Origin: Naegleria gruberi
Lineage: Eukaryota
Strand: one strand, 5' to 3'
Assembly (NCBI GenBank): GCA_000004985.1
Contig: GG738848.1
Length of the DNA: 64,000 bases
Below are positions 1,604-29,500 of the stretch, piece after piece. The first letter of the stretch is position 1. Each line of letters opens with the position of its first letter. The notes beneath the pieces were generated by a model that searched no databases, was not told the DNA's origin, and saw nothing but the letters and a program-made list of their open reading frames with translations. The translations under genes were made by a program, and so were the position numbers.

Positions 1604-4600
1604 ATGTCCCAACAACAACAACAACAACAGGAGGAAGAAATTGATCCAACATTGTTGAATTATAGAAACTTGACATTGTATGTAAAAAAGGGTGAAAGTA
1701 AGGATGTTGTCTCGGCATTGATCAGAGAGAATGAAAGTTCAAGTCAATCATCCTCTTCCGAAGATATTCAAAATAATGTGGAGGAGGCTTTTTCCAAGAC
1801 TGTTGATGAATCTACATTCCGAATTGAAGAATTAGATGAGGAGAGTTTAGAAAAATTATTAGCAGAATTATTAAAAGATCAAGATGATCAAGAAGTGTCA
1901 ATTCAACAAAATTATCTAATGAGAGAACAATCACTAAAACCTCCAGAACCTGGTACTGTTGAAATTAAACAACAAGTTGAATTTCCTCCTAAATTAGATC
2001 AATTAGAAACTGCCATAAATTCTGTAGGAAATTATCTGGCAGAAAAGGCAACAGAAAACAAGAAACAAGAAACAAACTTTAAAATCATTAGATCTGTTCC
2101 AACTGGAAAGCAAAATTCGGAAATAAGTTCAGTACCATTTATTTCCATTACATTTAGTCATGATATGATTGAAGAATTTGATGGAGAACCAAAATCATTT
2201 GAAGAAATTGATTTTGTTGAAATTAGTCCAGTCACTGAAAATGTTAAGGAAGGAAAATGGAAATGGATTGGAACTAAATCTTTAGTATTTCAACCAAGAT
2301 TCAGATTTGATAGATCTAATGAATTCACTTACAAGATTCTGAAAGAAAAGACCAAATCTGTGTTTGGTAACACGATTGAAGAAGATTTGGTGGTCACTTT
2401 CAAAACGCCAACATCACGCACTCTCTCAGTTATTCCTTCGTCAACAAGTTTCCCAATTTCCGAACTTCCTTTCATTTTCCTTCAATTTGATCAAGATATG
2501 GATAAGCAAAGTGTTCTTGCACATTTGTCAATAACAGTTTCTTCTAAATCTATTGGTGTAGAAGTATTAGAAGAAACATCAATTATTTCCAAAATGTTGG
2601 AAGATTTGGATTATGCTAAAAAGTTTCCATATGTTTTTGGATCATACAATAGATGCCTTCAAGGCACATATGACCCAAAGAGGTGTATGTGGCTGAAGTT
2701 GCATATTGCCAATGAAACTTTACATGCTGGAAAGGATTATCCAAAAATTGGATTAGGAGAATATTTGAGTATTTTATTGAAAAAGGGGTATAAGAGTTTG
2801 GAAGGACCAATACCGTCAGCTCATGAATACTCGACAGGTATTTATGGTTATTCCAAAATGGCAGTCAACTATCATTACCCAAAGAAACATTTATTTTATA
2901 ATGATATTTATCCAGGATGTTCATTTACTTTCAGTTTCAACAATCCAATTGATTTGGACAAGATAGAAAGTATTGAAACATTTGTCCAAGTTGAACCAGC
3001 CATTAAAAATTATAAGGTAACTTGTAATGGTAATAGTATTGTAATATCTGGTGATACACTTGCTAGAGAAAAGTATCGTGTGAAAATATTGAAAGGTGTC
3101 CCTGATATTTATAATCAAAGCTTGGAAAATGAATATGAAGCAACTTTTGAAGTGAGCGGAGAAGATAGAGAATTCAACATGACTCTTTCAAACTCAACAA
3201 TTATGCCACCTTGCTTGTTTGATTCACAAGATCCTTTTCTTTACTTTGATTCTGTAAATATTCAAGAAACTCATGTTATTATTAATCAAGTTGATCCTGT
3301 AGAAATGTACAAGGAAAGCTCTTTTCCCAAGTTAGCTGCAAAAACAGTATTTAATTCATATGATAATTATGATTACTTTGATTGGTATCCTCGTAAACCT
3401 CACAAGATTGGAAAGGAAGTTTTTGATCAAAAGGTAAAACCTGATAACTTTGTAAAAGATAGAACAGTTTCAACCAAGATTATGTTATCTCAATATCTCC
3501 AAAATGGAAAGACTGGATCTCTACTTGTTCACATCAAACCAAAGAGATCTATTTTATACAACTTATTTAATGGATACGAAACCAAGTGGATTCAAGTTTC
3601 AAATTTGTGTGCTGATATTATTAGTATCACAGGAGAGAAGGCAGCAGTTTTTGTTACTGATTTCTCAACTGGAAAACCAGTTCCAAATGCCACAGTAACT
3701 TTATCCTATTCTACCAATAATACACCAACGAAAGATGAAGACTTGAATATTATCTCAACAAGTGAAACAACAAATGAAAATGGAATGGCCTTCTTTTCCT
3801 ACAGTCGTAATTATCACACTGTTTTGATCATTTCAAAAGATCAAGATCAAGTTGTGTACACAAATCCAACAATTTACTCTCATTCAATCCGAACCGACAC
3901 AATTTCTGCTCATATATTTAATGATCGTGGTCTTTACAAGCCAAATGAAAATGTACATATCAAAGGTTTCCTTAGAGATATCAAGTACAATTATGAAAAG
4001 GGTTCTGAGAACTATGGCACCTATTCTATTAGAGAACCATCCACTGAAACTAAAGCTACCTATGAAGTTCAGGATTCTCGAGGTGTCAAATATTTGGATG
4101 GAAAGATTGAATTGAGTCCAAGTGGATCCTTTGTATTGGATTTAACTGTTCCTGATAATGCTAATTTGGGTTCTCATTCCTTGACAATTTGCTATGGATC
4201 TAGAAAATTTAACCACACTTTCAATGTTCAAGAATTTAGAACAAAAGAGTATACAGTTTCTAGCAGCATTATTCCTTCATCTGATAAGGTGGATTTGTTT
4301 ATTGGTGACAAATTGGTAAATAAGGTCAGCGCAAAGTATTATAGTGGAGGTGGCTTGTCCAATTCCCAAGTTAACTACCAGTTCAACACAGAACCTGCAA
4401 CCTTTAATCCAGAAGGATGGAGTAATTATGTCTTTCAAGATACAGATCTCAGAAATAATTACAAGCTCAATACTCTTATTGAAAATATGAAATCCAAATA
4501 TCAAGTATATCAAAGCTTTAACAGTGCAACTGACCCAAGCGGAGATGATCATGCCTTTATGCAGTTGTGGGATCCAGAAAAAATAGTAACTGGTCCAATA

Positions 4601-7600
4601 AGCATTAATTGTAAAGCAAATGTTCAAGATATTAATAGACAAACACAAGGAACATCTAGTGAGGTTATTCTCCACTCTTGTAAATACTATGTTGGTATTC
4701 GCTGTACAAAGAGAGTTGTTATGAAATCTGATGAAAATATTGACTGCTTTTTCATTGTTACAGATATTAGAGGTAAAATTGTAAAGGATATTCCAATATC
4801 TGTAAAATTGGTCAAGTTTGGTTATGATTCTAGGGGTTATGAAAGATGGGAAACCACTAAACCAATCAAGGAAATTAATCTAACCTCTCAAAGTCAACCA
4901 CTTCTTCATACATTTACCCTCAATGAAAACACAAATGATACTGCCTATGGAGAGTATGCAATTTTGTGTGAGGTAAAAGAGAGTGAAAGACCAAAATTTA
5001 GATCAGGCATTAACAGATGTAGTATTCCAATTCGTAAATTTGGATTTAAAGAACACTTGACATCAAAGGGATACACTTCACTCAGCACCAATTCACTTGA
5101 GTTAATTTCTAATAAGTTTGAAACTGATGAATACGAGCCAGGTGAAGAAGCCAAAGTTTATATTGTCTCTCCATTCAATGGTGAGTGCTCTGGATTTGCC
5201 TGGGTTTTATGCAATGGATTAATCAAAGAGGAGAGATTTGACATTACTAACGGTATCCATGAATTGACCATTCCAATCAAGAAGGAATACAGACCTAATA
5301 TCCAAGTAAGAGTTCAATTATTTGGTACTGAAAATTATATTGATGTTGATGACAAGCCAAGAGTTAATCCAGCTCATGCTACTGGATCTCTAACCCTCAA
5401 TATTTCCAAAACCGAGCATGAACTCACTGTAACTGTCACTCCAAAGGACCCAATCTTGAGTCCAGGAAAAGAAACTGATGTCAGCATTCTCGTAAAAGAT
5501 AAGCAAGGAAACAATGTACCAAATTGTGAGGTTTGTTTAATTGTTGCTGATCAAGCTGTTTTAGATATGGCCAATTATTCAGTTACCAATCCAATGTTTA
5601 CCTTTGTTTCTAACAATTCATGCTCTGTTGATTTCTCTTCGATAAGAGATCGAGTAAGATATTGGTTATATCCAAGAAAAAATCAAAGAGATGAAGAAAT
5701 CTTAGCAATAAGACAACAGGCACTCCCTTCTTCAAATTTGTGTGCATGTGATTTAGCTGGTTGCAGTGGAGGCCGTTCGCGTAAATGCTGTGAACAATGT
5801 GGCGAATGTGACGATATGGCTCAAAAGGAATGCAAACGTGAAAAGTGTTGCAAGAAGTCATGTGGCCTTGCATGTTTTTCTAGAAGGTGTTGTAAAAATA
5901 GTAAGGATTCATATGATGGCTCACGATCCCAGATGCCATCTATGGATGATAGAAATGGTGTATTTGAAATTCGTTCCAACTTTAAACCAGATGCTGCTTT
6001 TATTGGATTTGCTCAAACTGATGAAAATGGATTTGCAAAGCTTGATTTCAAATTGACTGACGCTCTCACAAAATTCAAAGTTACAGCTGTTGTAAATGCT
6101 AAACAAGACATGTTTGGTATTGGTAATTCTGCAATTACTACCAATTTACCTATTGCAGTTAGACCATCACTTCCAAGATTTTTGAATTATGGAGATTTAT
6201 GTGATTTGACCTATGTTTTACAAAATCAAACAGATTCTGATTTGACTCTTTCTCTAGTATGTAATGTATCAAATCTCAGAATATTCAATGGAAAGGATAA
6301 AAATCAACGTAAGAAGGGATATACTGTTGTGATACCAGCAATGGGAAGAAAAGAAATTAGAATTCCTGTTCAAGTACTCAAATGTGGTAAGGCTCTTATC
6401 AATCTTGGAGTTAGAGTGGTTAGAGCCATAGCCAAGAATCCTGAAAAGCAAGAACTTGCCGATGGAATGGTTGGATGGTCAGATGCTGTCAAGAATGATT
6501 TCAAAGTTTTTACTCCAGTAACCAATGAAGCTTTTGCAACGTATGGAGATGTTAGTGCAGAAAGTGAAACTATTGTACAACCAATTTCACTTCCATCCAA
6601 GAATCTATTGGCACACTTTGGTGAATTCACTGTTAGTACTTCAACAACAGCTCTATCTACATTGACTGATTCTCTCATTTATCTCTATTCTTATCCATAT
6701 GAGTGTAATGAGCAAATTGCATCAAAGATTTTAGGTATAGTTTGTATGAAGGAAATGATCTTACAATTCTACACACCTGAAGAGCTTCAAAGATTGATGG
6801 AAATTTCTGGAGAGGAAGAAGTTAACACATTCATTAATTCCAACCTTGCTAGATTATTTGATCGTCAAAGATATGACGGAGCATTCTCATATTGGGATAG
6901 CAAGTTAATTGGAGACCCATTCTTAACATGTCATGTAGCTCTCTGTTTTGCAAAATGTAAATCTGAAGGTTACAAAATCCCAGATCAAATATTATCAAGA
7001 ACCAAATCCATTTTGAAGAATATTTCAAGTTTATTCTTCTTTGGATTCCTTTGGCCAAGATGTATTAAGGATACAATCAAATCATATGCCTATTATATTT
7101 TATCATTGTTAGCTGAAAGTGAATCTGATAAGGGACAGGTAATTTCTCTGTGTGAAGGAATTCTTGATCATTATAATAGCATTACTGAATTGACACAAGA
7201 ATTATCCCCAGAGACTGCTGCCTACCTTGCTATGGCCATTCATAAATGTAAGAAGGAACCAGTAACAGAAGAAAAGAAGGGCTTCTTTGCTAAATTTACT
7301 AAAGAAAAGATAACTATTCATCAATGGTTGGATGCTATCAAATCATACTTTAAGGAAAATGTAACAATTGACTCTGGAATTTATGCTCACTTTATTACTC
7401 GTTATGAAGATAATGAACTCGCTCAAATGGTTATGTTGCATTCAAATACCAGAACTGATGCTGTTGTTTTGGGTTGTTTGATGGAAATTGATAGAGAAGA
7501 CAGTAGTGATATTATTCAAAAATTGGTGAGAAGTTTGTTGGCTGCCAGAAATGCAAACAGATATGGTCGTTGGTATAATACTCAAGAAAATTCCATCTGT

Positions 7601-8404
7601 CTCATGTCACTCACTGATTATTTCAAGATATTTGAGAAGGAAATTCCAGATATGAATGTCAATACTTGGCTAGTAGATAGTACTAGACCAGAGGAAACTG
7701 TATTCATGGGTAATCAATCTTGGAAGGGAAGAAGTAGAGAAAAGAAAACTACATCATTACCACTTGTTGCCTTTGTTCCACGAAGTGATATTGAAAAGGA
7801 AGTTGTTAATCCAAATGAAAGTGATTCCAAAAAGTCATTCTTGTTGACAAAGAATGGAGCTGGAAGGCTTTACTATAGAATTGCTCTTTCATACACTCCT
7901 GAAGAATTGGTTCTCAAAGCTCTTGATAAAGGATTTTCAGTTTCCAGAGTTTACGAAGCAATTACCAACCCAGATGATGTCAAGTTTGACAAGTCAACAA
8001 AAACATGGAAGGTAAAATCAGGAGAATTAGTCAGAGTAACAGTTACGATTTGCAATCCAACCAGAAGATACAATGTAGCCATGGTTGACAAGATGCCAGC
8101 AGGTTTCGAAGCTGTCAATCCAGAACTCGATACACAATTTACTGATTTTGGAAATAGTGGCAATGAAGAAGATTTAGCAAACAAATACTATTACAAATGG
8201 TTCGAAAATCAAAACATTAGAGATGAAAGAGTTGAAGCATTCAGCAGAATCTTATATGAAGGCTCCCACGTTTACAGTTATATATGCAGAGCTACTACGA
8301 TTGGATCATTTGTTTCTCCTCCAGCTTATATCGAAGAAATGTACTCTCCTGAATGCTTTGGAAGAAGTAAGACTGAGTTTGTGCAAGTTTATGATAAAAA
8401 ATAA
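1604..8404 (+). CDS. Alpha-2-macroglobulin / thioester-containing protein (TEP/CD109-like) family, 2266 aa, single exon.
   Basis: Uninterrupted ORF with a real ATG (MSQQQQQQQEEE). A2M N-terminal-type segment (...CEVCLIVADQAVLDMANYSV...). Thioester-like motif YPYECNEQ, compared with canonical GCGEQ. Cys/Lys-rich insert at the bait-region position (LCACDLAGCSGGRSRKCCEQCGECDD...KCCKKSCGLACFSRRCCKNS). No N-terminal signal peptide is visible. Confidence 0.6.
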   Translation: MSQQQQQQQEEEIDPTLLNYRNLTLYVKKGESKDVVSALIRENESSSQSSSSEDIQNNVEEAFSKTVDESTFRIEELDEESLEKLLAELLKDQDDQEVSIQQNYLMREQSLKPPEPGTVEIKQQVEFPPKLDQLETAINSVGNYLAEKATENKKQETNFKIIRSVPTGKQNSEISSVPFISITFSHDMIEEFDGEPKSFEEIDFVEISPVTENVKEGKWKWIGTKSLVFQPRFRFDRSNEFTYKILKEKTKSVFGNTIEEDLVVTFKTPTSRTLSVIPSSTSFPISELPFIFLQFDQDMDKQSVLAHLSITVSSKSIGVEVLEETSIISKMLEDLDYAKKFPYVFGSYNRCLQGTYDPKRCMWLKLHIANETLHAGKDYPKIGLGEYLSILLKKGYKSLEGPIPSAHEYSTGIYGYSKMAVNYHYPKKHLFYNDIYPGCSFTFSFNNPIDLDKIESIETFVQVEPAIKNYKVTCNGNSIVISGDTLAREKYRVKILKGVPDIYNQSLENEYEATFEVSGEDREFNMTLSNSTIMPPCLFDSQDPFLYFDSVNIQETHVIINQVDPVEMYKESSFPKLAAKTVFNSYDNYDYFDWYPRKPHKIGKEVFDQKVKPDNFVKDRTVSTKIMLSQYLQNGKTGSLLVHIKPKRSILYNLFNGYETKWIQVSNLCADIISITGEKAAVFVTDFSTGKPVPNATVTLSYSTNNTPTKDEDLNIISTSETTNENGMAFFSYSRNYHTVLIISKDQDQVVYTNPTIYSHSIRTDTISAHIFNDRGLYKPNENVHIKGFLRDIKYNYEKGSENYGTYSIREPSTETKATYEVQDSRGVKYLDGKIELSPSGSFVLDLTVPDNANLGSHSLTICYGSRKFNHTFNVQEFRTKEYTVSSSIIPSSDKVDLFIGDKLVNKVSAKYYSGGGLSNSQVNYQFNTEPATFNPEGWSNYVFQDTDLRNNYKLNTLIENMKSKYQVYQSFNSATDPSGDDHAFMQLWDPEKIVTGPISINCKANVQDINRQTQGTSSEVILHSCKYYVGIRCTKRVVMKSDENIDCFFIVTDIRGKIVKDIPISVKLVKFGYDSRGYERWETTKPIKEINLTSQSQPLLHTFTLNENTNDTAYGEYAILCEVKESERPKFRSGINRCSIPIRKFGFKEHLTSKGYTSLSTNSLELISNKFETDEYEPGEEAKVYIVSPFNGECSGFAWVLCNGLIKEERFDITNGIHELTIPIKKEYRPNIQVRVQLFGTENYIDVDDKPRVNPAHATGSLTLNISKTEHELTVTVTPKDPILSPGKETDVSILVKDKQGNNVPNCEVCLIVADQAVLDMANYSVTNPMFTFVSNNSCSVDFSSIRDRVRYWLYPRKNQRDEEILAIRQQALPSSNLCACDLAGCSGGRSRKCCEQCGECDDMAQKECKREKCCKKSCGLACFSRRCCKNSKDSYDGSRSQMPSMDDRNGVFEIRSNFKPDAAFIGFAQTDENGFAKLDFKLTDALTKFKVTAVVNAKQDMFGIGNSAITTNLPIAVRPSLPRFLNYGDLCDLTYVLQNQTDSDLTLSLVCNVSNLRIFNGKDKNQRKKGYTVVIPAMGRKEIRIPVQVLKCGKALINLGVRVVRAIAKNPEKQELADGMVGWSDAVKNDFKVFTPVTNEAFATYGDVSAESETIVQPISLPSKNLLAHFGEFTVSTSTTALSTLTDSLIYLYSYPYECNEQIASKILGIVCMKEMILQFYTPEELQRLMEISGEEEVNTFINSNLARLFDRQRYDGAFSYWDSKLIGDPFLTCHVALCFAKCKSEGYKIPDQILSRTKSILKNISSLFFFGFLWPRCIKDTIKSYAYYILSLLAESESDKGQVISLCEGILDHYNSITELTQELSPETAAYLAMAIHKCKKEPVTEEKKGFFAKFTKEKITIHQWLDAIKSYFKENVTIDSGIYAHFITRYEDNELAQMVMLHSNTRTDAVVLGCLMEIDREDSSDIIQKLVRSLLAARNANRYGRWYNTQENSICLMSLTDYFKIFEKEIPDMNVNTWLVDSTRPEETVFMGNQSWKGRSREKKTTSLPLVAFVPRSDIEKEVVNPNESDSKKSFLLTKNGAGRLYYRIALSYTPEELVLKALDKGFSVSRVYEAITNPDDVKFDKSTKTWKVKSGELVRVTVTICNPTRRYNVAMVDKMPAGFEAVNPELDTQFTDFGNSGNEEDLANKYYYKWFENQNIRDERVEAFSRILYEGSHVYSYICRATTIGSFVSPPAYIEEMYSPECFGRSKTEFVQVYDKK

Positions 8405-11012: not shown

Positions 11013-11285
11013 ATTTTTTTTTATATTTATTATTAGATAAAATATTTTTTAAAAAAAAACGGATTGTAAAAAAACCTAACGTTTGTCATATCTGTCTTGC
11101 TGCTCCTCTGAAAAGCCACTTCAAGCCTATTGCTAACTTGAGGAAGGAAGCTTGATTTTCATCTTGATTAATAGTAGTCAATAATAATTTATGTGATTGG
11201 CGGAAGAAGATATATAGCTACTCTGCATTGAAGCTTTTGAGAGAAGAATTTTAATAGTTTGGTTTCGATATATTGCATCATCGTG

Positions 11286-12116
11286 ATGATTTTAGGAAAA
11301 GTATTCGATCCAGACTTTGTTGTACACTCTATTAGTTACGAGAATGGAGGAAATAGTAATACTATGGTAAATAGGAATACAGTATTTTCATCCATTCTTC
11401 AACTTGGTGGGAAAGTAAAACAAGAAATGATGACAAGTATTAATAGTGGTGATTCTAAAGGAACAAACAAGGAACCTGTTCTTCCTTCACTACAATATTT
11501 GCAAACAAACCCTCTAGTGACTGGCAACTATAAGGAGACAATCAATAATAGGGAAGAATCTACAAGAGAAATTGCTTCCTCGGAAAATAGTGATGGCTCA
11601 CTCCTTCCCAAATTTCTAATAATTACCCACAAATTGAATCCTATTTCTATTGAGGATTTTATTGAATCTCTTAGTGGATGTATAAAAAGAATGTATGATA
11701 TTCAAAAGGAACAATTTCAGAATTTGAAGCAAAATATTCCTCATTATCACATTATTGATGGATTCACAATAGAAGGTGTTATTGCTTTACCAGAAGATAG
11801 ACAGAGTTCAGTATTTGTTCCATTTGCTGGAAATCGTGTGCATTTCAATGAAGATATGTTCTTTAGGTTGGTGGATGGATTATCAGAAGGTGTTAGTGAT
11901 GACTTGTTGCCTTCTCAGGTTGTAACTTGGCTCAATAATTCAATGTTGCCTTATTTTACAGATCCACAAAGAAAATTCCATTTTTTTGCTTTTGTACAGA
12001 CGCATGGTCATTCATCTATGCTGAAATCTGACACGTCCAGCGCGTTTGTAAAGAACCAGAGCCCGTTGAACAAGTTATGCACACAATTGGGTTTTCACAG
12101 GACTTCTAAATTGTGA
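11286..12116 (+). CDS. Hypothetical protein, about 276 aa.
   Basis: Track ORF 11259-12116 begins at an alternative start. The first in-frame ATG is at 11286 (MILGKVFDPDFVVHSISYENGG...). No recognisable domain. The last about 40 codons are unusually GC-rich (ACGTCCAGCGCGTTTG...), so the true C-terminus may be spliced. Confidence 0.35.
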   Translation: MILGKVFDPDFVVHSISYENGGNSNTMVNRNTVFSSILQLGGKVKQEMMTSINSGDSKGTNKEPVLPSLQYLQTNPLVTGNYKETINNREESTREIASSENSDGSLLPKFLIITHKLNPISIEDFIESLSGCIKRMYDIQKEQFQNLKQNIPHYHIIDGFTIEGVIALPEDRQSSVFVPFAGNRVHFNEDMFFRLVDGLSEGVSDDLLPSQVVTWLNNSMLPYFTDPQRKFHFFAFVQTHGHSSMLKSDTSSAFVKNQSPLNKLCTQLGFHRTSKL

Positions 12117-12152: not shown

Positions 12153-14225
12153 ATGAAACCTATGTTACTGCAAATCTGGTTGGTCGTTTCATATATTATT
12201 CTAATCAACCATGTTCATGTATCAACATGCTCACCTTCATATAGTTTAGATTTTATTTATTCAAAGAACTTTACAATACCGTCATTTGCGAAGGGGAAAG
12301 AGATCGATATAGCTAACATTAAAGAAGGAGATGTACTATCATATGGGTATTCCTTTTCTTTTTTATTGGTTAGAGAGGAAACCTTTCTTCATCTTAAGAT
12401 TACTACATTCAAGGATTTTATCACATACAACTACAACCAAACAATTGGAGTTGCAAGTGAGATGGTCCCATATTGGGAGGAAGTGCTTAAATTTTATTCA
12501 GTAGCTTCGATCAATTGGAAAACTTTTGAATACTATAATTCATTCTGTGCTCCAAATAACCCTTTCAACGAATATGACATTATCTTCACAAATAGGGAAG
12601 TATTCTTTGCAGCACATTTCTATGGCTCTGAACATTTGTTTAAATTTCTACCAATTAGAGCAATCCCTCTCTCCTTAAGATCTCAAGAAGCCTTTCCAGC
12701 ATCGTTTGCATATGCAATATCATTTGACAAACAGACGGATTTTATGAGCACAAATATTTACATGTACTTTAGATATGGAAATTTATCTGCAGATGATATT
12801 TCTTTTATCAAATTTTACTCTGGAGTTGAGAATGTTGTTGTGGACTATAACAGCTTTAAATCAATGATTGATAATGCTAGTAATCTGTACCATATTGATC
12901 TTGAAAACATTAAGCCAACATCAAGTGACTACTTTGATAACCTCAAAACTTACTATTTAAGTCCATATTTTGTAGACATGGATTACTGGCATATTCCCTG
13001 CATAGTATTAATCATATTATACTTTCTATTTCTATTTATTTCAAGACTGTTCTTGAAACCATCGATGAAAATTAGATTAATTATACCATATTTTCCTATT
13101 TTGATATTTATTCAGGAGATAGGAGGCTCTAACTATATATTCTATTATTGTTCAGAGTGGATTGGATATTTGAGAAGTTTTATTTTCTGTTTTGTTTGTT
13201 TTTCATATGGATTTACTGTGGTAAGAATATACTATCTCAGGAACATCTATTCTATTATGTATAACAACGAAAGTATAGACGAAAACAGAATTAAACGAAT
13301 GAAATTGTTAACTACTAAGAAGTTTGCTCTAGTTGCTATCCCTTTAGTTTCATTTATTCTATCATTTTTGCTAACCCTACAATGTGTAGCCTTATTTTTT
13401 GACATTGGATACAAAACAAGATTCTTAATTACAAATATTAGTTTTCCAATTTATCCAATAATTGGTGCTTTGATTGGTTTGTTTGCAATAATTGTAGACA
13501 TTAAAATGAATTGGAAACAAATTAGAGAAAATGGGGTTAAAAAGTTTCTACTTTGGGATGATGTGTATAATATTCGGATAGATTTAATGTTAATGTCAAT
13601 TTTATTGGTTTTGGTGATATCCATTGTGATTCTGTTTGCATTAGATGTTTACAATCATTCCATCAAAGTTTTGCTTTGGTTGTCGTATCTTGTTTTCACA
13701 TTAATTTGTGGTGGTAGTACTTTTATTAAGGAGCTAGTGATAGCCATACGAAAGGATAGAAGTCCAAAATCAGAATTAGAAAAGCTTTTAGAAAATCATT
13801 CATTCAGACAATTATTCAAAGAGTATAGCACAAAGGAATTATCACTTGAAAATTTTATGTTTTATGAAAAGTTGAGAGAATTGGTATCAAAATATGGAAT
13901 GAATGGTTTTATTCCACATGAAACTCTTCAACAAGTTGAAAACCAATTCTTTAAACAAGACTCTCCCTATGAATTGAATATACCATCCAGAACTAGAAAA
14001 CTCTTTTATGCCTTATTTGAAAATTATGAAAAACCAGATTCATCAAGTGCAGAATTAATTGAATATGCTAATACTACAAAAGTATCAGATTTATACACAA
14101 TTATTTACAATGATTTACTTACTAACATGTCTGATACTCAAAGTAGACTTATTGAAACTGATGTTTTTCAAAATTGGTATGCTGTATTTACTATTCAAAG
14201 AAAACAATCAGTGATTATTGTATAA
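12153..14225 (+). CDS. Seven-transmembrane receptor-like protein fused to a C-terminal RGS domain (7TM-RGS, AtRGS1-like architecture).
   Basis: Real ATG with signal peptide (MKPMLLQIWLVVSYIILINHVHVSTCS). Extracellular domain of about 270 aa. Seven hydrophobic helices, for example WHIPCIVLIILYFLFLFISRLFL, IGYLRSFIFCFVCFSYGFTVV, FALVAIPLVSFILSFLLTLQCVALFF, LMLMSILLVLVISIVILFAL, VLLWLSYLVFTLICGGSTFI. C-terminal RGS-box signature FRQLFKEYSTKELSLENFMFYEKLRELV. Confidence 0.6.
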   Translation: MKPMLLQIWLVVSYIILINHVHVSTCSPSYSLDFIYSKNFTIPSFAKGKEIDIANIKEGDVLSYGYSFSFLLVREETFLHLKITTFKDFITYNYNQTIGVASEMVPYWEEVLKFYSVASINWKTFEYYNSFCAPNNPFNEYDIIFTNREVFFAAHFYGSEHLFKFLPIRAIPLSLRSQEAFPASFAYAISFDKQTDFMSTNIYMYFRYGNLSADDISFIKFYSGVENVVVDYNSFKSMIDNASNLYHIDLENIKPTSSDYFDNLKTYYLSPYFVDMDYWHIPCIVLIILYFLFLFISRLFLKPSMKIRLIIPYFPILIFIQEIGGSNYIFYYCSEWIGYLRSFIFCFVCFSYGFTVVRIYYLRNIYSIMYNNESIDENRIKRMKLLTTKKFALVAIPLVSFILSFLLTLQCVALFFDIGYKTRFLITNISFPIYPIIGALIGLFAIIVDIKMNWKQIRENGVKKFLLWDDVYNIRIDLMLMSILLVLVISIVILFALDVYNHSIKVLLWLSYLVFTLICGGSTFIKELVIAIRKDRSPKSELEKLLENHSFRQLFKEYSTKELSLENFMFYEKLRELVSKYGMNGFIPHETLQQVENQFFKQDSPYELNIPSRTRKLFYALFENYEKPDSSSAELIEYANTTKVSDLYTIIYNDLLTNMSDTQSRLIETDVFQNWYAVFTIQRKQSVIIV

Positions 14226-14357: not shown

Positions 14358-15325
14358 ATGAGTTTATTGGAGGTGATCAATCACCCACTCGTCAAGTCGG
14401 GTCACTCTGTTTTAAAGAACGCTTTTGATACATATCAATCTTTGGATGCTACTCTTGTATTTAACTTATTCTTTTTAAGTCATGCTTTTATTGTTGCCTT
14501 GATGGTCAAGAGATGTTTTGAAGGCTTGATCGCTAAAGGAAAAGTCAAGGAAATTCCTTTTGTTGCCGGAATGTTGTTGTGCTTTGCTGTTGGTACTGGT
14601 GGAGCTATTTTAACTTCTCTCCTCTTAGGAAAAACACAAATCTTCTTTGATAATGATATTATTAATTTATATTTAATTTGGTAGGTTGATGATTGTGATT
14701 ATTTACAAACAAAATAAGTGCTTGGATCATTACAATTTATGCACCATTTAACCTTGTTGATATCCTTTTGGGTAATGCCCTAGTTCAACTTTTTACTTTT
14801 GCTGCTGAAGGATTCTTTGTTGGTGGATTTTGTATTGGTGGAGTTAATAGAGGTGCTGCTGAATATCCACAATCACACTTTGCACCAATTATTCTTGGTT
14901 CTATTGCTTGTGTTGGAGGTGCTATTTTGAGACCATTCTTTGTCAATCTCTATGTTGGTGAAAGTGTTGAAGGAAGTGTTTTGAGCTCACCAAATTTCAC
15001 TCTTAAGGCTCCAATTTTGATAAGTGCTTTCCTCTATGTCACCAAGTTTATTCTCAAATTGGATGTTATTGAAATTCCATTGTCTTCTATTCCAGTTAAG
15101 GAAATTTCTGGACAAGTCATTGCATTCACACCTGAACAACTTGTTAAGGCATACTTTGTTTTGCACTTTATCATTATTTATTATATTTCACATCCATTCT
15201 TCCAAAAGGCTCCAAAGGTTGTAAAGAAGACATCTGTTGCTACTGTTACCACAACAAGTGTTGAACAACCATCATCAGCTGATAAATCTTCCAATAAGAA
15301 AAAGGAAACTAAGAAGAATAAGTAA
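14358..15325 (+). CDS. TRIC-type trimeric intracellular cation channel (TMEM38 family), 2 exons (14358-14680 and 14719-15325).
   Basis: Real ATG at 14358. GTAGGT donor at 14681 (phase 2) and acceptor AATAAG at 14718 (38-nt intron), joining ...NLYLI-C-AWIITIYAPFNLVDILLG. Multi-pass membrane protein with TRIC hallmarks: KEV-like motif KVKEIPFVAGML, glycine motifs AVGTGGAIL and ILGSIACVGGAIL (compare TRIC-A FGSACGG), and a lysine-rich C-terminal tail SSNKKKETKKNK. Confidence 0.5.
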
Positions 15326-16432: not shown

Positions 16433-18514
16433 TTATTTTCTATTTGATAGGATTTTCTTTACAGTTTTGTTATCTGAACTCAAAACGAGATCAGGAGCAA
16501 TGTTCAGAACAATATCACCAGTAATTCCTTGTTTTACAATATAATTCTCTTGCGCTAATTTTTCAGTACTATCTGCAATTTCAGTAAAGTTACTTCTGAA
16601 ATCGTCATCAAGTATCTCTTCATATTTTCTTCTAAATTCCTCAGAGGTTATTTCTCCATTAAACTTTTCCTTCTCAGATGCAACACAGCAAAGTATGACA
16701 AGTACTTCAATTGTTGTCTGACCTAATCCTTTTAGTATATCCAATTTTCTGCTAAATTGTGTATTTACAAGTTTTATCAGCTTACTTGTATCCAAGGTAT
16801 GAGCAATTGGAATCAAGTGAGTTTCCACAAATGATTTAATTTGTCTCATATCATGTTTGTTCTTTAAGAGACCCATCATTTTCTGAATCATATCTGCTGA
16901 AATCTTGTGCTTGTATTCATGAACAAGGATTGAGGTAATATCATCCTGTTCATACTGATTAAATGCCAAAAAGTTAATACCTGGATTCTTTGGTGGATCG
17001 TTGGTGATGGCCAATATTATTACTTTAGCCACTCGAATTTGTTCCAGATATTTGTTATGCTTGCTATATGAAAATTCATCAAGTAAGATGAGTGCTGGTG
17101 TGTGCTTCTTATTGAAATACTCCAATAACTTGGTGATTCTCTCTTGCTTCTTTGTTGAATCTGTTGATCGAGTGTAAACTTTTTCATAGAGCCTATATAT
17201 CAAATCAGATGCTTTTTCTGAACCAGCTAAATTCAATTGATACTTTTCCAAACAAGATGCATCAAATACTGAAGTTGTTACCATTGTTTTTCCTTGACCA
17301 TTAGTTCCGTAAATAAAAAGCACATTCTTTTGGGGATTAAAATCTTCATAACAGTTTTGGATAAAGTTAATTATTGTATCACATTCCTGCTTTCTTGAGA
17401 ATACTTCAACGTTTTGATTAAAGATTTTTGGTGATGATTTTTGTTTCTTTAGAGAAGATTCAAAAGGATGTTTCTCTTGTTCTTCTTCTCTTTCTGTGAC
17501 TGGAAGCTTAGCAATTGTCTTTCTTCTTGCTTGTCTTTGTTTTTTTGGAACTATTTCAATCTCGTCTTCAGATAGTAATGGTTCTTCAGTTTTCACAACC
17601 AAATCTTGTGAATCCTCAACTGGTTCAATTTTGACTTTTTGTCTGCGTCCTTGCCTAGATTTAACAGGAACAGGTTCTAATACTTCTTCTTGTGGTTGTT
17701 GCTGTATCTCATTAACAATAGGCACACTAGTTGAGGGTGAAACAATTTCTTGTGAATCTTCGGCTACTGTTGGAGGTACTGTTTCGTCTTTCGTTTCTGG
17801 AGTGATGCTAATAGTAGGTCGGGCTTGCCTCTTCTTTGTTCTAGTTTTAACAGATGCATGAATTACAGGGGATTGAATGTTGTTGGTAGTAGTATTCGAA
17901 TTGGATTGTTGTGATGAACTAGTTTCTTGAATTGGAGATTGTCTAACTAGATGAGTTTGAGGAGGGGAAAGAGGTGAAATTGATGGAGGCATCATTGGAA
18001 TTGAATGTTGACTATTGCTGTATGGACTTTGTGATAATGAGCTTTCGACTGGCATATTTCTCATTGGTGTTGAAAAGCTTCTAGAGGTTGTTGGACTGAA
18101 AAAGTATTCTCTTGTTTGATTAACAGATGTAATATATTGATCTCGATCCATAAGATCGATTTCTCTTTGTTCTGGTGGTAGTAATAAGAGTTTCTTCCAC
18201 AGCAGTCTATATTGAGTATTAGAGGTAATTTTAATGTCCTTGTTTGTTTTAATATCGTGAAAAACAATCACAAATTTACTCCTATCAACATTAGGATCAT
18301 CTATCACTTCCGACATTAAAAATTGTCTTGTTGATTCAATATCGGAATTTTCTTGTAATAGAGTTGTAGTTACACCATAATTTAAACACGATAGAGTGAC
18401 TTCCATTTCATCGGTAACACTATCATCAATCATGGAATGATCGGACAGAAGTGATGAGGAGAAAGAAGAGGTTTGTCTCCTTGTTGATGTATCTGTGATG
18501 TGTTGTTGACTCAT
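16433..18514 (-). CDS. Cdc6/Cdc18-like AAA+ ATPase (ORC1/Cdc6 family), 693 aa, single exon.
   Basis: Real ATG at 18512-18514 (MSQQHITDTSTRRQ). N-terminal region rich in S/T-P sites (SPYSNSQHSIPMMPPSISPLSPPQTHLVRQSPIQ, TPMR, SPST), like the Cdc6 CDK-phosphorylated N-terminus. Walker A FIYGTNGQGKTMV. Walker B LILLDEFSY. Sensor-1-like VIILAITNDPPKNPG (compare Cdc6/ORC1 LIGIANTMDLPER). The family assignment is inferred from motifs only. Confidence 0.45.
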   Translation of the reverse strand: MSQQHITDTSTRRQTSSFSSSLLSDHSMIDDSVTDEMEVTLSCLNYGVTTTLLQENSDIESTRQFLMSEVIDDPNVDRSKFVIVFHDIKTNKDIKITSNTQYRLLWKKLLLLPPEQREIDLMDRDQYITSVNQTREYFFSPTTSRSFSTPMRNMPVESSLSQSPYSNSQHSIPMMPPSISPLSPPQTHLVRQSPIQETSSSQQSNSNTTTNNIQSPVIHASVKTRTKKRQARPTISITPETKDETVPPTVAEDSQEIVSPSTSVPIVNEIQQQPQEEVLEPVPVKSRQGRRQKVKIEPVEDSQDLVVKTEEPLLSEDEIEIVPKKQRQARRKTIAKLPVTEREEEQEKHPFESSLKKQKSSPKIFNQNVEVFSRKQECDTIINFIQNCYEDFNPQKNVLFIYGTNGQGKTMVTTSVFDASCLEKYQLNLAGSEKASDLIYRLYEKVYTRSTDSTKKQERITKLLEYFNKKHTPALILLDEFSYSKHNKYLEQIRVAKVIILAITNDPPKNPGINFLAFNQYEQDDITSILVHEYKHKISADMIQKMMGLLKNKHDMRQIKSFVETHLIPIAHTLDTSKLIKLVNTQFSRKLDILKGLGQTTIEVLVILCCVASEKEKFNGEITSEEFRRKYEEILDDDFRSNFTEIADSTEKLAQENYIVKQGITGDIVLNIAPDLVLSSDNKTVKKILSNRK

Positions 18515-23558: not shown

Positions 23559-26500
23559 TTAAATGTGATACAATTCGTGAATCATGAAAAAGTATTCAAT
23601 TGGACAATATAATTTGAGTTTTCGTACCATCTCTTCATCTAATTTGATCGTTATCAATAAATCTCTACATTGATTGATAATTTCAAATAATTGTTCAATA
23701 ATGAAAGGTTTTAAATGTTCATGTTCCATCAAATCAATAAAAATTCTCATTCCTTTCAAAATTTCATCAGAGGCAACAGAATTTAAACTCAACGAGCTTA
23801 TAGTTCCATTACTATTGTTATTGGAATTTTGAATCAGAGAAGTTTCATAATTATAAGAATGATTAATGGATTCATTCTTCAATGCAGTAATATCATTTAG
23901 AACATTAAATCTACTTGTTATTGTTTCTAATCCTAAACGAACAATTTGATGTTCCATACATGGTTGTATTAAACCTTTCAATACTTGATTAGGAAAATAT
24001 GAAATATGAGTTGTAACATTAGAATATCCAAAATTTAAAGAATCAACAATTAATGAAGATGCAGCACTAATATTTCCAAATAAACTTGTTAAGGTTGATT
24101 TACGTCTATTGTTAGATTGTCCAGATGATCCAATAGTATTATAATTACCAGCATTGCCACTATTATTTGTCTGTTGTTGAGAATCTTGAGAATTAATATT
24201 ATTATAAATTGAATAATTTGGAAACATGGCACTTGTTGGTGAATTCATTCCTCCTCCAACTCCACCACCCATAAATGTACCACTATTATTATTGCTATTG
24301 CTTGTAGTATTAGAAGTAGGAGGATATAACAAGTGAGAAAGTTGAACTGTCCACTCACTAATATTCACACCACTATTATTCATTCCACCAACACTACTAA
24401 CATTACCAAAACTTCCACCTATACCACCTATATTATTATTACTTGAATTATTATTACTACCACCACCTATATTACCAATATTATTATTATTACCAGTATT
24501 AATATTATTATTACCAGTATTATTAATATTATTATTATTATTACTTGAACCACCATTAAAAGATTGTGAAGTTGTTGCAATTAATCTTTTTAAAATTGTT
24601 TGTTCAAATTCTTCTTTTTGTTGTTGATTAGTTCCAAATTTAATGAAATGAAAAATGTGATTTAATAATTTTTGAGTATTTGAATTTAAAATAAAAGAAG
24701 AAATTCCATCAATTAATTGTCTTTCAATAATAGTATTACTAAATAAAGATAAAGTATTAACATTTGATAAATTTTGATCTTTTCTAAAAATTTCATTTAA
24801 ATAAAAACAAGCATAAAATCTAATTATAAAAGGTTGATTTCCATTTTGAATTAAATCCATAAATCTTTTTATAACTCTTTCAGATGAAATTGGTAAAATT
24901 GATAAAACTTTAAAAGTTTTAATAATTAATTCATTATTAATTTCATAATTATTTCTATTATCATCATGAATAAATAATAATAATAACATTGATAAATTAT
25001 TTAATAATTGTTCATGTAAATTATTTTTAATATTTCCATTTTTAGTAGTAATATTACTATTTATAGTATTATCATTATATTTATAGTAATTAATTAAATA
25101 TTCTTTCATAATTTTTAAATAATGTTTATAAACAAGTAAAAGTAAAATTGTTTGTTTAAATTCAGATAAAGGTTGTTGTGAAATTCTAATTAAAGATTTA
25201 AATAAAATTGATAATAAATCACAAAATATTCTTTCTATAATAATTGGAACTCCTTTACATGTAATTGTATAATTTCCATATATAGGTAGTAATTTAGTTA
25301 CTATATATAGACATGATAAATGTTGTTCTAAATTAAAATTTTGATCAAAATAATATAATTCTATATTTGTAGGTATTGAAGCAATTCCTTTTTGTTCATT
25401 ATTATCTAATAAATTTGGTAATAAATATGAAATACATAATTTTAAAATATGTGAAATTTTACCATTTGAATTTAATTCTAAAAATTCAAATTGATTTAAT
25501 AAATTTTTATGTGAAATTTCCATTTCTGTATTATTATTACCATTTTTATCAGAATGAGAAGAAGAACAAGATGATGATGATGAATCTGAAATATCATCTG
25601 AAATATCATCTTCATCTTCTGAATTTACTATATTTGTTAATAAAATTGTAATTGATTTTGCTAAATTTAAAAATCTTGGAATTAAATAATTTTTTTTAAT
25701 TAAAATATATTCCCTTTTTAAATATTGATCATTTTCAATTTGTAAAATATATTGATTATTATTAATATTATTAAATAAATTATTTTGATTATTTAAAATT
25801 CTTTCCATAATTATTAATAAATGAATTTCCTTATTAGTAGAAATAGTTTCAATTAATTTTACAAAATTTAAATCTAAAGAATTTAAAATACAATTATCAA
25901 TAATTGATAAAATACTTGTTTTAGAATTACTATTTATAGTAAAATTAAAAGGTACATAAATGGAAATTAATTTACTCATGTAAGATTCATCTTGTTCAAA
26001 AATATCAATAAATTTAATTAAATGATCATAAAATAATTTGTTAAATTCAATTGAATTATTATAAATTTTACCTAAAAAATTAAAATTAATTAATTTTTTA
26101 AAATCATCCATAATTTTATCTAAAATTAAATTATCAATAATTAAATTTAAATTTAATAATTGTAATAAAAAATTAGAACAATTAATTTTTTCATTATTTT
26201 TATAATTTTTAAATAAAAAATTATATAATTGATAAACAATTTTATAACTATCATAACTTGTTTTAGATTCCAAATTTGGAGAAATAAATTCATCTGGATT
26301 TATATTTTGAATTATATTAATTAAAGTTAAAATTAAATTAAATAAAATTATAATTCCTTCATCATTTTTATAATTATTAATTAAAATTAATAAATCATTA
26401 ATTGACTTTTTTAGTAATTTCATATAAACATTTAAAATTTGTCTATTTTGTATAATTTCTATATTTGAATTTAAAATAATTAATAATAAAAATGGTGTTG

Positions 26501-29500
26501 TATTATAAATATTTAATAATAAATTACTCATTTGTTCAAATAAATAATTTAATTGGCAATGTTCAATTAATTTAGTAATTCCAAAACAAGTATGTACATA
26601 ATTAGAAATATTAAAATTTGTAATATTAAAAAAATCAGAATCATTAAATTCACTTAAATTAATTGGTTGTGATAATTTTAAAGAAGGTGTAATTGACCTT
26701 CTAAAAATAGATTTTGTTTTCTTTTTTTCTAAATTTATAATTAAATCTTCAGAAATTTTCTTATTTTTTAAAAAATCACTTAAAATTTCTATAAATGTAT
26801 TTGAATTTAAATCATTATTATTAAAATAACTTGTTTCATTTTTAATTAAAATTCTTAAAGCAATTTGTTGAATACTTGTATATTTAGAAGTAACTGCCCT
26901 TTTTAGATATTCTCTATATATAGTTTCAATTTCTTGTATATCTTTTAATTCTCCATTTATATTATTAAGAACATTACTTCCATTTATATTATTATTATTA
27001 TTATTATTAGTAGTATTATTAGTAGTAGTGGATGATGATGATGGTGATGAATTATTCCATAAATTACCACTATTAGATTTATTAGATGATAATCCATTTA
27101 AAATACTACTTGTATGATTATTCATACTATTATATTGTCTTGAATGTTGTTGTTGTTGTTCTTTCTTATTTCTTATATTCATTATATTCATTATACTATT
27201 ATTACTATTATTATTATTATTAGATCTACTACTATTATTTTTAAAAGAATTAGAAGTAGATGATAAATTATCAACACTATTTGAATAATTTGTTGTTGAT
27301 GATGAAATTTGTCTAAAAGAAGATAATTCATTCTTTCTTCTAATTTGATTTGTAAATTGTTCAAGTTTATCCAATGATAAATTTCTAATTAAAATTCTTT
27401 CAATAATTAATTCTTCAGNNNNNNNNNNNNNNNNNNNNNNNNNNNNNNNNNNNNNNNNNNNNNNNNNNAAATTGTGGTAAATATCCTAATAATGGAAATT
27501 GTTGTGATGCAATTTGATGATCATCTTCATAATATTGTTGATAAATAAAAACTAATTGTCTCCAAATTAGGCGATACAATTGTGGTCTTTCAGAAAAGAA
27601 ATCATCGGGTAATTTTCTAAACTTTTCAATTTTGGAAACTGATAAATATTCTGCTAAATCTAACATGAATTCCATAAATTCATTAGATGTTAATATTTTT
27701 TCCTTTTTTGTAAATTGTTCAATATTATTAAAGGAAATTCTCTTTCTTTCATCACTTTCTTTTAATGAAAGTCTATTTCCACTACTATTATTATTATTAT
27801 TAGTAGTAGTAGTATTAGTAGTAGCACTACCTCCTCCACTATTACTATATATACTTGAATTTGAGATAACACCACCACTTGAAGAATTTGTTTGATTGTT
27901 AAATAAATTCAAATTCTTTGAATCTCTTTTACCCATTGAAAATCTTAAACTTCTACTTCTGACACGTCCACCACCAGCACCAACACCACCACTAGATGTT
28001 GGTGTTCCACTACCACCTACATAATTAGAAGTAAAAACACCAGTACCAGCACCACCACTATTAGTATTAGTATTATTTGGACTAATACTGAGTGAATGAG
28101 CCATAGCAGTATTGGAATCAGATGAATTTGGTATTAAAGTGGATGGAGTATTAGATGCTGAATTAAATACATCACTATATTGTTGTTCAATATTAGCAAA
28201 TAAAGAAGGTGTTACAACAACAACAAGTGAATCAGTTGATGAATCATAATCCATATGAGTTGATTGTTGTTGCTGCTGTTGTTGTTCAGATCCTCTTCTA
28301 AAGAATGATTGTGAATGATGATGTGATGATTGATTCATTCCAATACTATTATTACTATTAACATTTCCAAATAAATAATTATTAGATGCCAAATTACTTG
28401 GTAATAAATTCAAATCAGATGAAATGTAAAATTTGTTTAAAAATTGTTCTAACATCATTCTAATTGGTATTTCATTCATTTCAATTAAACTATTACTAGT
28501 ATTAGTATTACTATTAGTAGTATTAGTATTATTACTAGTATTATTAGTAGTAGATTCAATATTTTCCTGTTGTTTGAGTGCAAAATAATGAGCAAATGAT
28601 GGAATTCTAGCAATTTCCAAATATCTAAAATCATATTCATTCAATTCATTAAATAAAGTATTATATAAATTTAATGATCCACTATAATTCTTTTTATCCT
28701 TATTCTTTTTAACATTTGAATTGGCATTAATTGAAGAAGAAGAAGTGGATGATGAAGAATTTGATTGTCCTGAAACAATATTTCCTAAAATATTTGATAA
28801 ATTAGTAGAAATGAATAAATTAGGAGGAGGTGGAGCACAATTTTGTAAAAGAGATGAAATATTATTAATACCCATTGATTGAATATCAATAGTTTTTAAA
28901 ATATAATTATAATGTTGTGATTGATTAAAATTTGGATCTAATGGATGTTGTTGTTGTTGCTGAGTAAAATTTTGATTTTCAATAATATAAATGGTATTAT
29001 TTGTTAAATTTGATAATTGTGACATGATATTAAAATATTCTTGACCTTTAAAATGTTGAAAATGATCAAAAATTAAAATACATTTACCATTTAAAATTAA
29101 TTGTTTTAAATATTGTTGAATTTCCTTATTAAATTGTAAATGTTGTTTTTGTAAATTGTTTGCAGTTGATGAATTATTTCTAGAATTAAATCTTGGACTT
29201 TGTGTAAAACTACCAAAATTAGAATTTGAATTTTCATTAAATAAAATATCATTTGCTAATTTTATAACATTTCCAAAATAATATTCAAAACATCCTTGAA
29301 TTATTTTATCTATAAAATCATTTATATTTGGCATATTTAATATATTTCTTAAAGATACCATAATTGGTATTTTAAATAAACTATTAGAATGATTTGATAA
29401 TAATTGATTTAATAAATTATTATTACTTGCCATATTAGAAGAATTACTAGTATTTAAAGTATAAATATGTTCCATATAATATCTATGTATAGATGAAATA

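What the first reader, a model, noticed from the sequence alone, without database searches (positions are those of the whole stretch)
12153..14225. 7TM-RGS fusion protein (receptor-GAP chimera)
A signal peptide, a large extracellular domain, seven predicted helices and a bona fide RGS box (SLENFMFYEKLRELV) occur in one polypeptide. This architecture is best known from plant AtRGS1, where a receptor-like module directly regulates G-alpha GTPase activity. It is uncommon outside plants and a few protists, so it deserves explicit annotation.
Basis: partly seen in the sequence, partly recalled or inferred. Interest (0 to 1): 0.55.

Follow-up and report, generated by a model that had tools for sequence, protein, structure and literature searches.

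The report
Naegleria 7TM receptor fused to RGS
This is a real gene from the amoeba Naegleria gruberi that joins an extracellular sensor domain, a GPCR-like seven-helix membrane domain and a G-protein "off-switch" (RGS) domain in one protein; the protein type is already published for Naegleria, but the public gene model here is cut to its last third.

Summary
ORF 12153..14225 (+) encodes 690 aa with four parts:
- a signal-like N-terminus
- a ~250-aa α/β ectodomain

The window is Naegleria gruberi. A 100% identical public protein (XP_002681969.1, 239 aa) covers only residues 452-690, so the public model is truncated.

The architecture is not new. Bosch et al. 2022 (PMC9283941) describe 28 7TM-RGS proteins in N. 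fowleri and show GAP activity for three of their RGS domains. This locus is one paralog of a heterolobosean expansion (Naegleria, Willaertia): 74 cluster representatives score E≤1e-10.

The modestly new part is the ectodomain. About 35 relatives share it. It is related (hhalign 89%, far above shuffle controls) to a paralog ectodomain that passes Pfam NMT1/THI5, a periplasmic solute-binding fold. That suggests a solute sensor coupled to a GAP output.

Verdict: a correct call, an ordinary member of a known kind, useful mainly as an annotation fix.

The parts
12153..14225 (+). Complete single-exon CDS of the 7TM-RGS protein (690 aa plus TAA stop). The start context is aaaaaaacaATGaaa.
   Evidence: ORF list and sequence. 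Full-length homology to Naegleria and Willaertia paralogs. It is the only ORF in the window that matches the family HMM (E 2e-189).
12153..12230 (+). Signal-peptide-like N-terminus (aa 1-26, MKPMLLQIWLVVSYIILINHVHVSTC).
   Evidence: KD hydropathy, a family-mean hydropathy peak at aa 8-20 and the translation. Cleavage after C26 is inferred from the -3/-1 rule. No SignalP run was possible.
12231..12974 (+). Extracellular α/β ectodomain (aa 27-274). It is an orphan by sequence and is probably a divergent type-II periplasmic-binding-protein-like (NMT1/THI5-like) sensor module.
   Evidence: AF2 gives pLDDT about 80-90 with alternating β/α elements. About 35 of 128 relatives share it (jackhmmer). 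hhalign of A2 against A3 gives prob 89%, score 49.9, against shuffles of 12.0±1.8. A3 members and the A3 consensus pass the Pfam NMT1 gathering cut-off. Foldseek PBP hits are weak. There is no direct Pfam or PDB hit for the query-type domain.
12975..13751 (+). Seven-transmembrane bundle with a GPCR fold (aa 275-533): TM1 275-296, TM2 311-332, TM3 334-363, TM4 389-415, TM5 420-452, TM6 474-496, TM7 502-533.
13509..13577 (+). Conserved third intracellular loop motif (aa 453-475, NWKQIRENGVKKFLLWDDVYNIR; family consensus NRKxIKxKGxxxFLFFDDPFxxR). It is the best-conserved cytoplasmic element outside the RGS box.
   Evidence: Invariant G461, D470 and R475, and nearly invariant N453 and P471, in the 29-member alignment. 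Translation. Its function is unknown. A contact site for Gα or for the RGS domain is inference only.
13764..14219 (+). Cytoplasmic RGS box (aa 538-689), joined to TM7 by a linker of only about 5 residues. It has no C-terminal tail.
13506..14225 (+). Extent of the public gene model (XP_002681969.1 / EFC49225.1, NAEGRDRAFT_62703, 239 aa). It starts at internal Met452 in ICL3, so it holds only TM6, TM7 and the RGS box.
   Evidence: P0001 is 100% identical to query aa 452-690. Its name and accessions come, and its sequence.

Best explanation
The locus encodes a type-I-oriented receptor-GAP of the heterolobosean 7TM-RGS family.

- A cleavable signal peptide puts a ~250-aa ectodomain outside the cell. 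The ectodomain is probably a divergent solute-binding (PBP-II/NMT1-like) fold.
- A GPCR-fold 7TM bundle spans the membrane.
- A canonical RGS box sits directly under TM7 in the cytoplasm.
- The RGS box binds the transition state of one or more of the many N. gruberi Gα subunits and accelerates GTP hydrolysis, holding 'self-activating' Gα proteins off.
- An extracellular cue sensed by the ectodomain and 7TM module changes that GAP access or activity, so the signal is transmitted by modulating the off-rate rather than by nucleotide exchange.

Shown here: the architecture, the topology, the folds, conservation of the Gα-contact residues, and membership of a large Naegleria/Willaertia paralog family.

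Shown by others for distant paralogs: GAP activity of Nf 7TM RGS2-4 on Nf Gα2/3/5/7.

Inferred: GAP activity of this paralog, ligand control, and the nature of the ligand.
For: - Architecture and topology.
- RGS HMM above gathering. Only RGS domains are found in the PDB by profile.
- Equivalents of RGS4 E87, N88, N128, D163 and R167 are invariant in 29 of 29 family members.
- Family: 125 representatives, of which the named ones are N. gruberi, N. fowleri, N. lovaniensis and Willaertia magna, most aligned across 7TM plus RGS.
- Substrates exist: N. gruberi has about 44 Gα subunits (PMC8584482).
- Biochemistry in the sister species (PMC9283941): 28 7TM-RGS proteins, RGS domains of three of them are GAPs, binding is selective for the GDP·AlF4 state, and the switch-1 G-to-S 'RGS-insensitivity' mutation abolishes GAP activity.
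- Ectodomain link to the PBP fold.
Against: - No experiment exists on this protein or on its ~700-aa subfamily. The four N. fowleri proteins tested are much longer (RGS fragments at aa 1036-2459) and have EGF, lectin and GPS ectodomains.
- The Pfam RGS match on the query is partial (positions 2-83 of 117). A ~20-residue insertion separates α6 and α7, where AF2 confidence is low (aa 629-639, pLDDT below 50).
- Expression of the full-length transcript was not verified, and the public model is shorter.
Confidence: 0.8

Rival explanations
1. The public 239-aa model is right. Only TM6, TM7 and the RGS box are expressed, and the upstream 451 codons are a decayed or untranslated remnant.
For: The deposited annotation starts at Met452. 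The exact 690-aa product is not on record in the assembly index.
Against: The frame is open for 690 codons from an ATG in an A-rich start context. The N-terminal 451 aa align to paralogs and keep every family-invariant residue (R308, R358 and others) and the shared ectodomain. AF2 folds the whole chain confidently. A two-TM fragment would be an incomplete bundle.
Confidence: 0.05
2. The RGS box is a non-catalytic RGS-homology scaffold, as in GRKs, axin and mammalian RhoGEF rgRGS domains. It tethers partners without GAP activity.
For: The Pfam match is partial and there is an α6-α7 insertion. Some RGS domains are known to have lost GAP function (PMC3971589).
Against: All canonical Gα-contact positions are invariant across the family, including the Asn equivalent to RGS4 N128 and the E87/N88 pair. 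The fold matches R4-type RGS4 at rmsd 2.0 Å. Naegleria 7TM-RGS domains that were tested are true GAPs using the canonical interface.
Confidence: 0.1
3. The ectodomain is not a solute-binding (PBP-like) sensor. It is a lineage-specific α/β domain with another role, such as adhesion or glycan binding, or the 7TM part is merely a membrane anchor with no ligand control.
For: There is no direct Pfam or PDB hit for the query-type ectodomain profile or its consensus. Foldseek PBP matches have poor rmsd (15-17 Å) and E>0.1. The published Naegleria paralogs have adhesion-type ectodomains with EGF, lectin and GPS elements.
Against: The query-type ectodomain is homologous to the P0034-type ectodomain well above shuffle controls. 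The P0034 type passes the NMT1/THI5 gathering cut-off, and the same stretch gives concordant weak NMT1_3 and TRAP-TAXI hits. PBPs are the only non-GPCR, non-RGS fold class in the Foldseek top 50.
Confidence: 0.35

Closest known systems
Naegleria fowleri 7TM RGS proteins (Nf 7TM RGS1-4 and 24 others; Bosch, Jeck & Siderovski, J Biol Chem 2022, PMC9283941)
   Same: Same genus-level family: an N-terminal ectodomain, 7TM and a C-terminal RGS box. An N. fowleri protein (XP_044557647.1, P0004) aligns to the query over aa 181-687 at E 1.2e-67. The RGS interface is canonical.
   Different: The four biochemically tested proteins are much larger, with RGS fragments at aa 1036-2459, and have EGF, lectin and GPS ectodomains. 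The query belongs to a ~700-aa subfamily with a different, PBP-like ectodomain that the paper does not mention (0 occurrences of 'periplasmic'). The query and its nearest relatives also lack the juxtamembrane Cys motif (SSCHxCxxxxC) found in about two-thirds of paralogs.
Arabidopsis AtRGS1 (plant 7TM-RGS)
   Same: The logic is the same: a 7TM module fused to a cytoplasmic RGS box that acts as a GAP on self-activating Gα, with an extracellular cue relieving GAP action (PMC3718340).
   Different: From established knowledge, AtRGS1 has almost no ectodomain, a longer TM7-RGS linker, and a phosphorylated C-terminal tail that drives endocytosis. The query has a ~250-aa ectodomain, a ~5-residue linker and no tail after the RGS box. 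No plant protein was seen among the 20 hits whose names were looked up. Homology of the two 7TM modules could not be tested, so independent fusion is possible.
Class C GPCRs (mGluR, CaSR, T1R, GABA-B)
   Different: Class C receptors use a type-I PBP (ANF_receptor) Venus flytrap and signal as GEFs. Here the ectodomain relates to the type-II NMT1/THI5-like family and the output is a fused GAP. There is no sequence similarity, and class A receptors score equally well.
R4/RZ-type RGS domains (RGS4, RGS1, RGS10, RGS17)
   Same: Fold and Gα-contact residues.
   Different: Only about 17-19% identity. The query has an insertion between α6 and α7 and is tethered directly to a membrane bundle.

Membership tests
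RGS domain (Pfam PF00615) | HMM score above the curated gathering cut-off | tested here: met
   28.3 bits against 23.9, aa 542-627, model positions 2-83 of 117. 22 of 29 family members also match at E<=0.01, and P0021 matches end to end.
RGS domain (Pfam PF00615) | All-helical RGS fold superposable on solved RGS boxes | tested here: met
RGS domain (Pfam PF00615) | Gα switch-contact residues (RGS4 S85, E87, N88, N128, D163, R167) | tested here: met
   They correspond to S564, E566, N567, N609, D661 and R665, each present in 29 of 29 aligned members.
RGS domain (Pfam PF00615) | GTPase-accelerating activity on a Gα subunit | not testable with these tools
   Demonstrated only for the distant paralogs Nf 7TM RGS2-4 (PMC9283941).
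7TM-RGS receptor-GAP architecture (AtRGS1 type, Naegleria type) | Seven TM helices N-terminal to an RGS box in one polypeptide, with the RGS box cytoplasmic | tested here: met
   Seven family-conserved hydrophobic peaks, seven AF2 helices, and a positive-inside pattern that places the C-terminus inside.
7TM-RGS receptor-GAP architecture (AtRGS1 type, Naegleria type) | Sequence homology of the 7TM module to the AtRGS1 7TM module (common origin of the fusion) | not tested
   No AtRGS1 sequence could be retrieved: the word-indexed search returned only 2 close relatives and AFDB was unavailable. None of the 20 named hits is from a plant.
Heterolobosean (Naegleria/Willaertia) 7TM RGS family | Full-length similarity (7TM plus RGS) to annotated Naegleria 7TM-RGS proteins | tested here: met
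   N. lovaniensis 2.8e-72 (aa 96-687), N. gruberi paralogs 1.6e-70 to 2.4e-51, N. fowleri 1.2e-67, and Willaertia magna members.
GPCR fold / known GPCR families | Structural match of the 7TM bundle to solved GPCRs | tested here: met
GPCR fold / known GPCR families | Membership of a curated 7TM sequence family (Pfam 7tm_1/2/3, Dicty_CAR, Frizzled and others) | tested here: not met
   No Pfam 7TM family matched any of the 29 members at E<=0.01. The PDB profile search returns only RGS domains.
Type-II periplasmic solute-binding fold (Pfam NMT1/THI5-like, PBP clan) | Direct HMM or profile match of the query-type ectodomain | tested here: not met
   No PBP family at E<=1 for 19 ectodomains or at E<=10 for their consensus. 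The PDB profile search was empty.
Type-II periplasmic solute-binding fold (Pfam NMT1/THI5-like, PBP clan) | Homology to a domain that does pass the family threshold | tested here: met
   hhalign of A2 against A3 gives prob 89%, E 2.2e-6, score 49.9, against shuffled 12.0±1.8 and reversed 13.4. A3 members and the A3 consensus score 22.3-24.2 bits on NMT1 against a cut-off of 20.5.
Type-II periplasmic solute-binding fold (Pfam NMT1/THI5-like, PBP clan) | Structural match of the modelled ectodomain to solved solute-binding proteins | tested here: inconclusive

The most novel reading that the evidence does not exclude
The ~700-aa subfamily to which this gene belongs is a heterolobosean 'inverse class-C receptor'. 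A bacterial-type (type-II, NMT1/THI5/TAXI-like) solute-binding domain sits on a GPCR-fold 7TM bundle whose built-in output is a GAP rather than a GEF. Binding of a small extracellular solute would then directly tune the off-rate of self-activating Gα proteins. This ectodomain class is not described in the one paper on Naegleria 7TM-RGS proteins. It would give the family a tractable class of candidate ligands.
Probability: 0.5. Interest if true: 0.5.

Novelty: new member of a known kind. Interest (0 to 1): 0.3.

Why it matters
- Annotation: the public N. gruberi model (239 aa, 'predicted protein') hides the receptor part. Restoring the 690-aa product adds a 7TM-RGS receptor to the N. gruberi signalling inventory. 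It also suggests that counts of such proteins based on the 2010 gene models are underestimates.
- Biology: Naegleria combines self-activating and conventional Gα subunits with a large 7TM-RGS radiation (PMC9283941). Nobody knows what these receptors sense. A subfamily whose ectodomain derives from a solute-binding fold would offer a concrete route to ligand discovery, using a soluble ~250-aa domain and thermal-shift screening. The pathway has been proposed as a drug target in the pathogenic sister species N. fowleri.
- Limit: none of this changes the current picture of G-protein signalling. It extends a published family.

Tried and rejected
1. The word-indexed homolog search with the full protein found nothing. 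It missed even the 100% identical P0001 (compare). The exhaustive HMMER search was needed.
2. Single-sequence AF2 was useless (pLDDT 39). The MSA-based model was used instead.
3. I first guessed a dictyostelid or amoebozoan origin from the AT-richness. The 100% match to N. gruberi rejects that.
4. I considered that the same-frame upstream ORF 11259..12116 might be an upstream exon or a read-through. It ends in TGA 36 nt before an ATG in a good context that is followed by a signal peptide, and the family HMM does not extend into it. This was rejected.
5. Ectodomain profile and consensus searches against PDB, Pfam and NCBIfam gave no direct hit. The A3 PDB hits to LRIM1 are spurious and marginal.
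6. A local pairwise alignment of the query C-terminal RGS third to RGS4 was uninformative. The mapping was made through paralog P0021 instead.
7. The AtRGS1 comparison failed. The RGS-profile word search returned 2 proteins, AFDB50 was unavailable, and Bradford 2013 and Anantharaman 2011 are not held.
8. Exact-product look-ups for the 690-aa ORF and for P0001 found no contig record, so public neighbouring gene calls could not be inspected.
9. No tandem paralog or other family member lies in the window.

Full report
**1. The observation**

The quoted motif SLENFMFYEKLRELV is at aa 564-578, nt 13842-13886. The start codon sits in an A-rich context (aaaaaaacaATGaaa), 36 nt after the TGA of an upstream ORF in the same frame. 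The protein begins MKPMLLQIWLVVSYIILINHVHVSTC|SP, which has one basic residue, a hydrophobic core and small residues at -3/-1.

**2. Which genome**

The neighbours are eukaryotic: a myosin TH1/PH protein, RUN, a protein kinase, the PP2A-A subunit, ALG3, xanthine dehydrogenase and acetyl-CoA synthetase. The DNA is AT-rich, 18-37% GC.

The exhaustive HMMER search found a protein 100% identical to aa 452-690 (P0001, 239 aa). This is N. gruberi XP_002681969.1 / EFC49225.1, NAEGRDRAFT_62703, 'predicted protein', and its sequence starts at the internal Met452. The window is therefore Naegleria gruberi (Heterolobosea). The public model holds only TM6, TM7 and the RGS box.

**3. The RGS box**

- Pfam RGS scores 28.3 bits against a gathering cut-off of 23.9, covering model positions 2-83 of 117.
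- A profile of 29 family members finds only RGS domains in the PDB (RGS17 1.6e-8, RGS10, RGS1, RGS18, GAIP, EhRGS-RhoGEF, RGS4).
- An HMM alignment, together with a transitive mapping through paralog P0021 (which matches the Pfam model end to end), equates RGS4 E83/S85/E87/N88/N128/D163/S164/R167 with query E562/S564/E566/N567/N609/D661/T662/R665. Each of these positions is identical in all 29 aligned members.
Its numbering reproduced all nine published contact positions.

The box therefore looks GAP-competent. It carries a ~20-residue low-confidence insertion between α6 and α7 (aa 629-639).

**4. The membrane domain and topology**

Hydropathy averaged over the family shows a signal-like peak and exactly seven peaks between aa 280 and 525. 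AF2 gives seven long helices at 275-296, 311-332, 334-363, 389-415, 420-452, 474-496 and 502-533.

Loop charges follow the positive-inside rule for N-out/C-in. Net charge is +4.0, +3.2 and +1.9 on ICL1-3 and +2.1 on the post-TM7 linker, against about 0 on the ECLs. TM7 runs almost directly into the RGS box, with a ~5-residue linker, and the protein ends right after the last RGS helix. The best-conserved cytoplasmic element besides the RGS box is ICL3, with consensus NRKxIKxKGxxxFLFFDDPFxxR.

**5. The family**

The exhaustive search gave 125 cluster representatives at E<=1e-3, 74 at <=1e-10 and 29 at <=1e-30. Most are 600-850 aa and align across 7TM plus RGS at about 30-35% identity. All the named ones are heteroloboseans: N. 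gruberi (at least 5 paralogs), N. fowleri, N. lovaniensis and Willaertia magna. The rest are unnamed environmental sequences. No other member lies in this window.

**6. What is already known**

Bosch, Jeck & Siderovski (J Biol Chem 2022, PMC9283941) report 28 7TM proteins with C-terminal RGS domains in N. fowleri. They compare them explicitly with AtRGS1 and Trichomonas. They show that the RGS domains of Nf 7TM RGS2-4 accelerate GTP hydrolysis on Nf Gα2/3/5/7, bind the GDP·AlF4 state selectively, and use the canonical interface, since GAP activity is lost with the switch-1 G-to-S mutant.

N. gruberi has about 44 Gα subunits (PMC8584482). de Mendoza et al. 2014 list 7TM-RGS proteins in many bikonts, chytrids, filastereans and ichthyosporeans, but no TM-RGS proteins in Amoebozoa (PMC3971589).

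The architecture is therefore established for this genus.

**7. The ectodomain, the only part that goes beyond the literature**

- The four N. fowleri proteins tested biochemically are much longer, with RGS fragments at aa 1036-2459, and have EGF, lectin and GPS ectodomains. That paper never mentions a periplasmic-binding-type domain.
- The query ectodomain (aa 27-274) is modelled as an alternating β/α domain at pLDDT about 80-90.
- About 35 of the 128 retrieved relatives share it (jackhmmer).
- Its profile (A2) and its consensus hit nothing in the PDB or Pfam.
- A second ectodomain class occurs in P0034 (Willaertia), P0031, P0024 and P0046 (alignment A3). It passes the Pfam NMT1/THI5-like gathering cut-off (22.3-24.2 bits against 20.5), and the same stretch gives concordant weak hits to NMT1_3 and TRAP-TAXI. 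All three are type-II solute-binding families.
- hhalign relates A2 to A3 at 89% probability, score 49.9, over 153 columns that include the NMT1-matched stretch.
- Sixty column shuffles of A3 give 12.0±1.8 (maximum 15.8) and the reversed alignment gives 13.4. The link is therefore not a composition artefact.

I put the PBP-like reading at about 0.5-0.65.

The query and its closest relatives also lack the juxtamembrane Cys motif (SSCHxCxxxxC) present in about two-thirds of paralogs.

**8. Mechanism**

Shown here: the domain order, the topology, the folds and the intact Gα-binding surface. Shown by others for paralogs: GAP activity.

Inferred: the protein sits in the plasma membrane with its RGS box held just under TM7. 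It accelerates GTP hydrolysis on one or more N. gruberi Gα subunits. An extracellular cue, possibly a small solute bound by the ectodomain, alters that activity, by analogy with AtRGS1 (PMC3718340).

Unlike AtRGS1, this protein has no C-terminal tail for phosphorylation-driven endocytosis. The very short TM7-RGS linker instead suggests direct conformational coupling. That point is speculation.

**9. Verdict**

The gene is an ordinary member of a published, lineage-specific family, and its public gene model is truncated. The ectodomain assignment is a modest, testable addition. Interest is about 0.3.

Noticed in passing
window 1604..8404 (+): A 2266-aa ORF carries bacterial-type alpha-2-macroglobulin domains (bMG10 5.7e-30, A2M_BRD, MG2, A2M, and weak Big_1/bMG3) in a eukaryotic (Naegleria) genome. 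This could be a horizontally acquired bacterial A2M.
   Followed up: no
window 23559..31650 (-): Two very long ORFs (1271 and 1411 aa) lie in DNA of only 18-23% GC. Only the C-terminal half of a protein-kinase domain (model positions 164-259 of 263) is detected, at the very N-terminus of ORF 27415..31650. The first half of the kinase must therefore lie in another exon upstream, and the rest is probably low-complexity sequence.
   Followed up: no
window 11259..12116 (+): A 285-aa ORF with no Pfam match is in the same reading frame as the 7TM-RGS gene. It stops (TGA) only 36 nt before that gene's ATG. This is an unusually tight gene junction. The family HMM does not extend into it.
   Followed up: partly
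window 50919..55495 (+): Xanthine dehydrogenase/oxidase is split over two ORFs, 50919..53363 and 53525..55495, with MoCoBD_1 divided between them. This is presumably a short intron.
   Followed up: no
window 14358..15325 (+): Immediately downstream of the focal gene, a small multi-pass membrane protein appears split into two ORFs (14358..14684 and 14768..15325). There is a GT...AG-like gap after 'ttggtaggt'. This is probably one gene with a short intron.
   Followed up: no
window 16433..18514 (-): A 693-aa ORF has an AAA_22/NB-ARC-type (STAND-like) NTPase domain.
   Followed up: no
family alignment A1, query aa 453-475 (window 13509..13577): The third intracellular loop (consensus NRKxIKxKGxxxFLFFDDPFxxR) is the most conserved cytoplasmic segment outside the RGS box across 29 paralogs. 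No function is known. It could be a Gα- or RGS-docking element.
   Followed up: no
tool behaviour: The word-indexed protein search with the full 690-aa query returned no hit, although a 100% identical 239-aa protein is in that collection. Hydrophobic TM words probably saturated the 8000-candidate list. Negative results from that tool on membrane proteins should not be trusted.
   Followed up: yes
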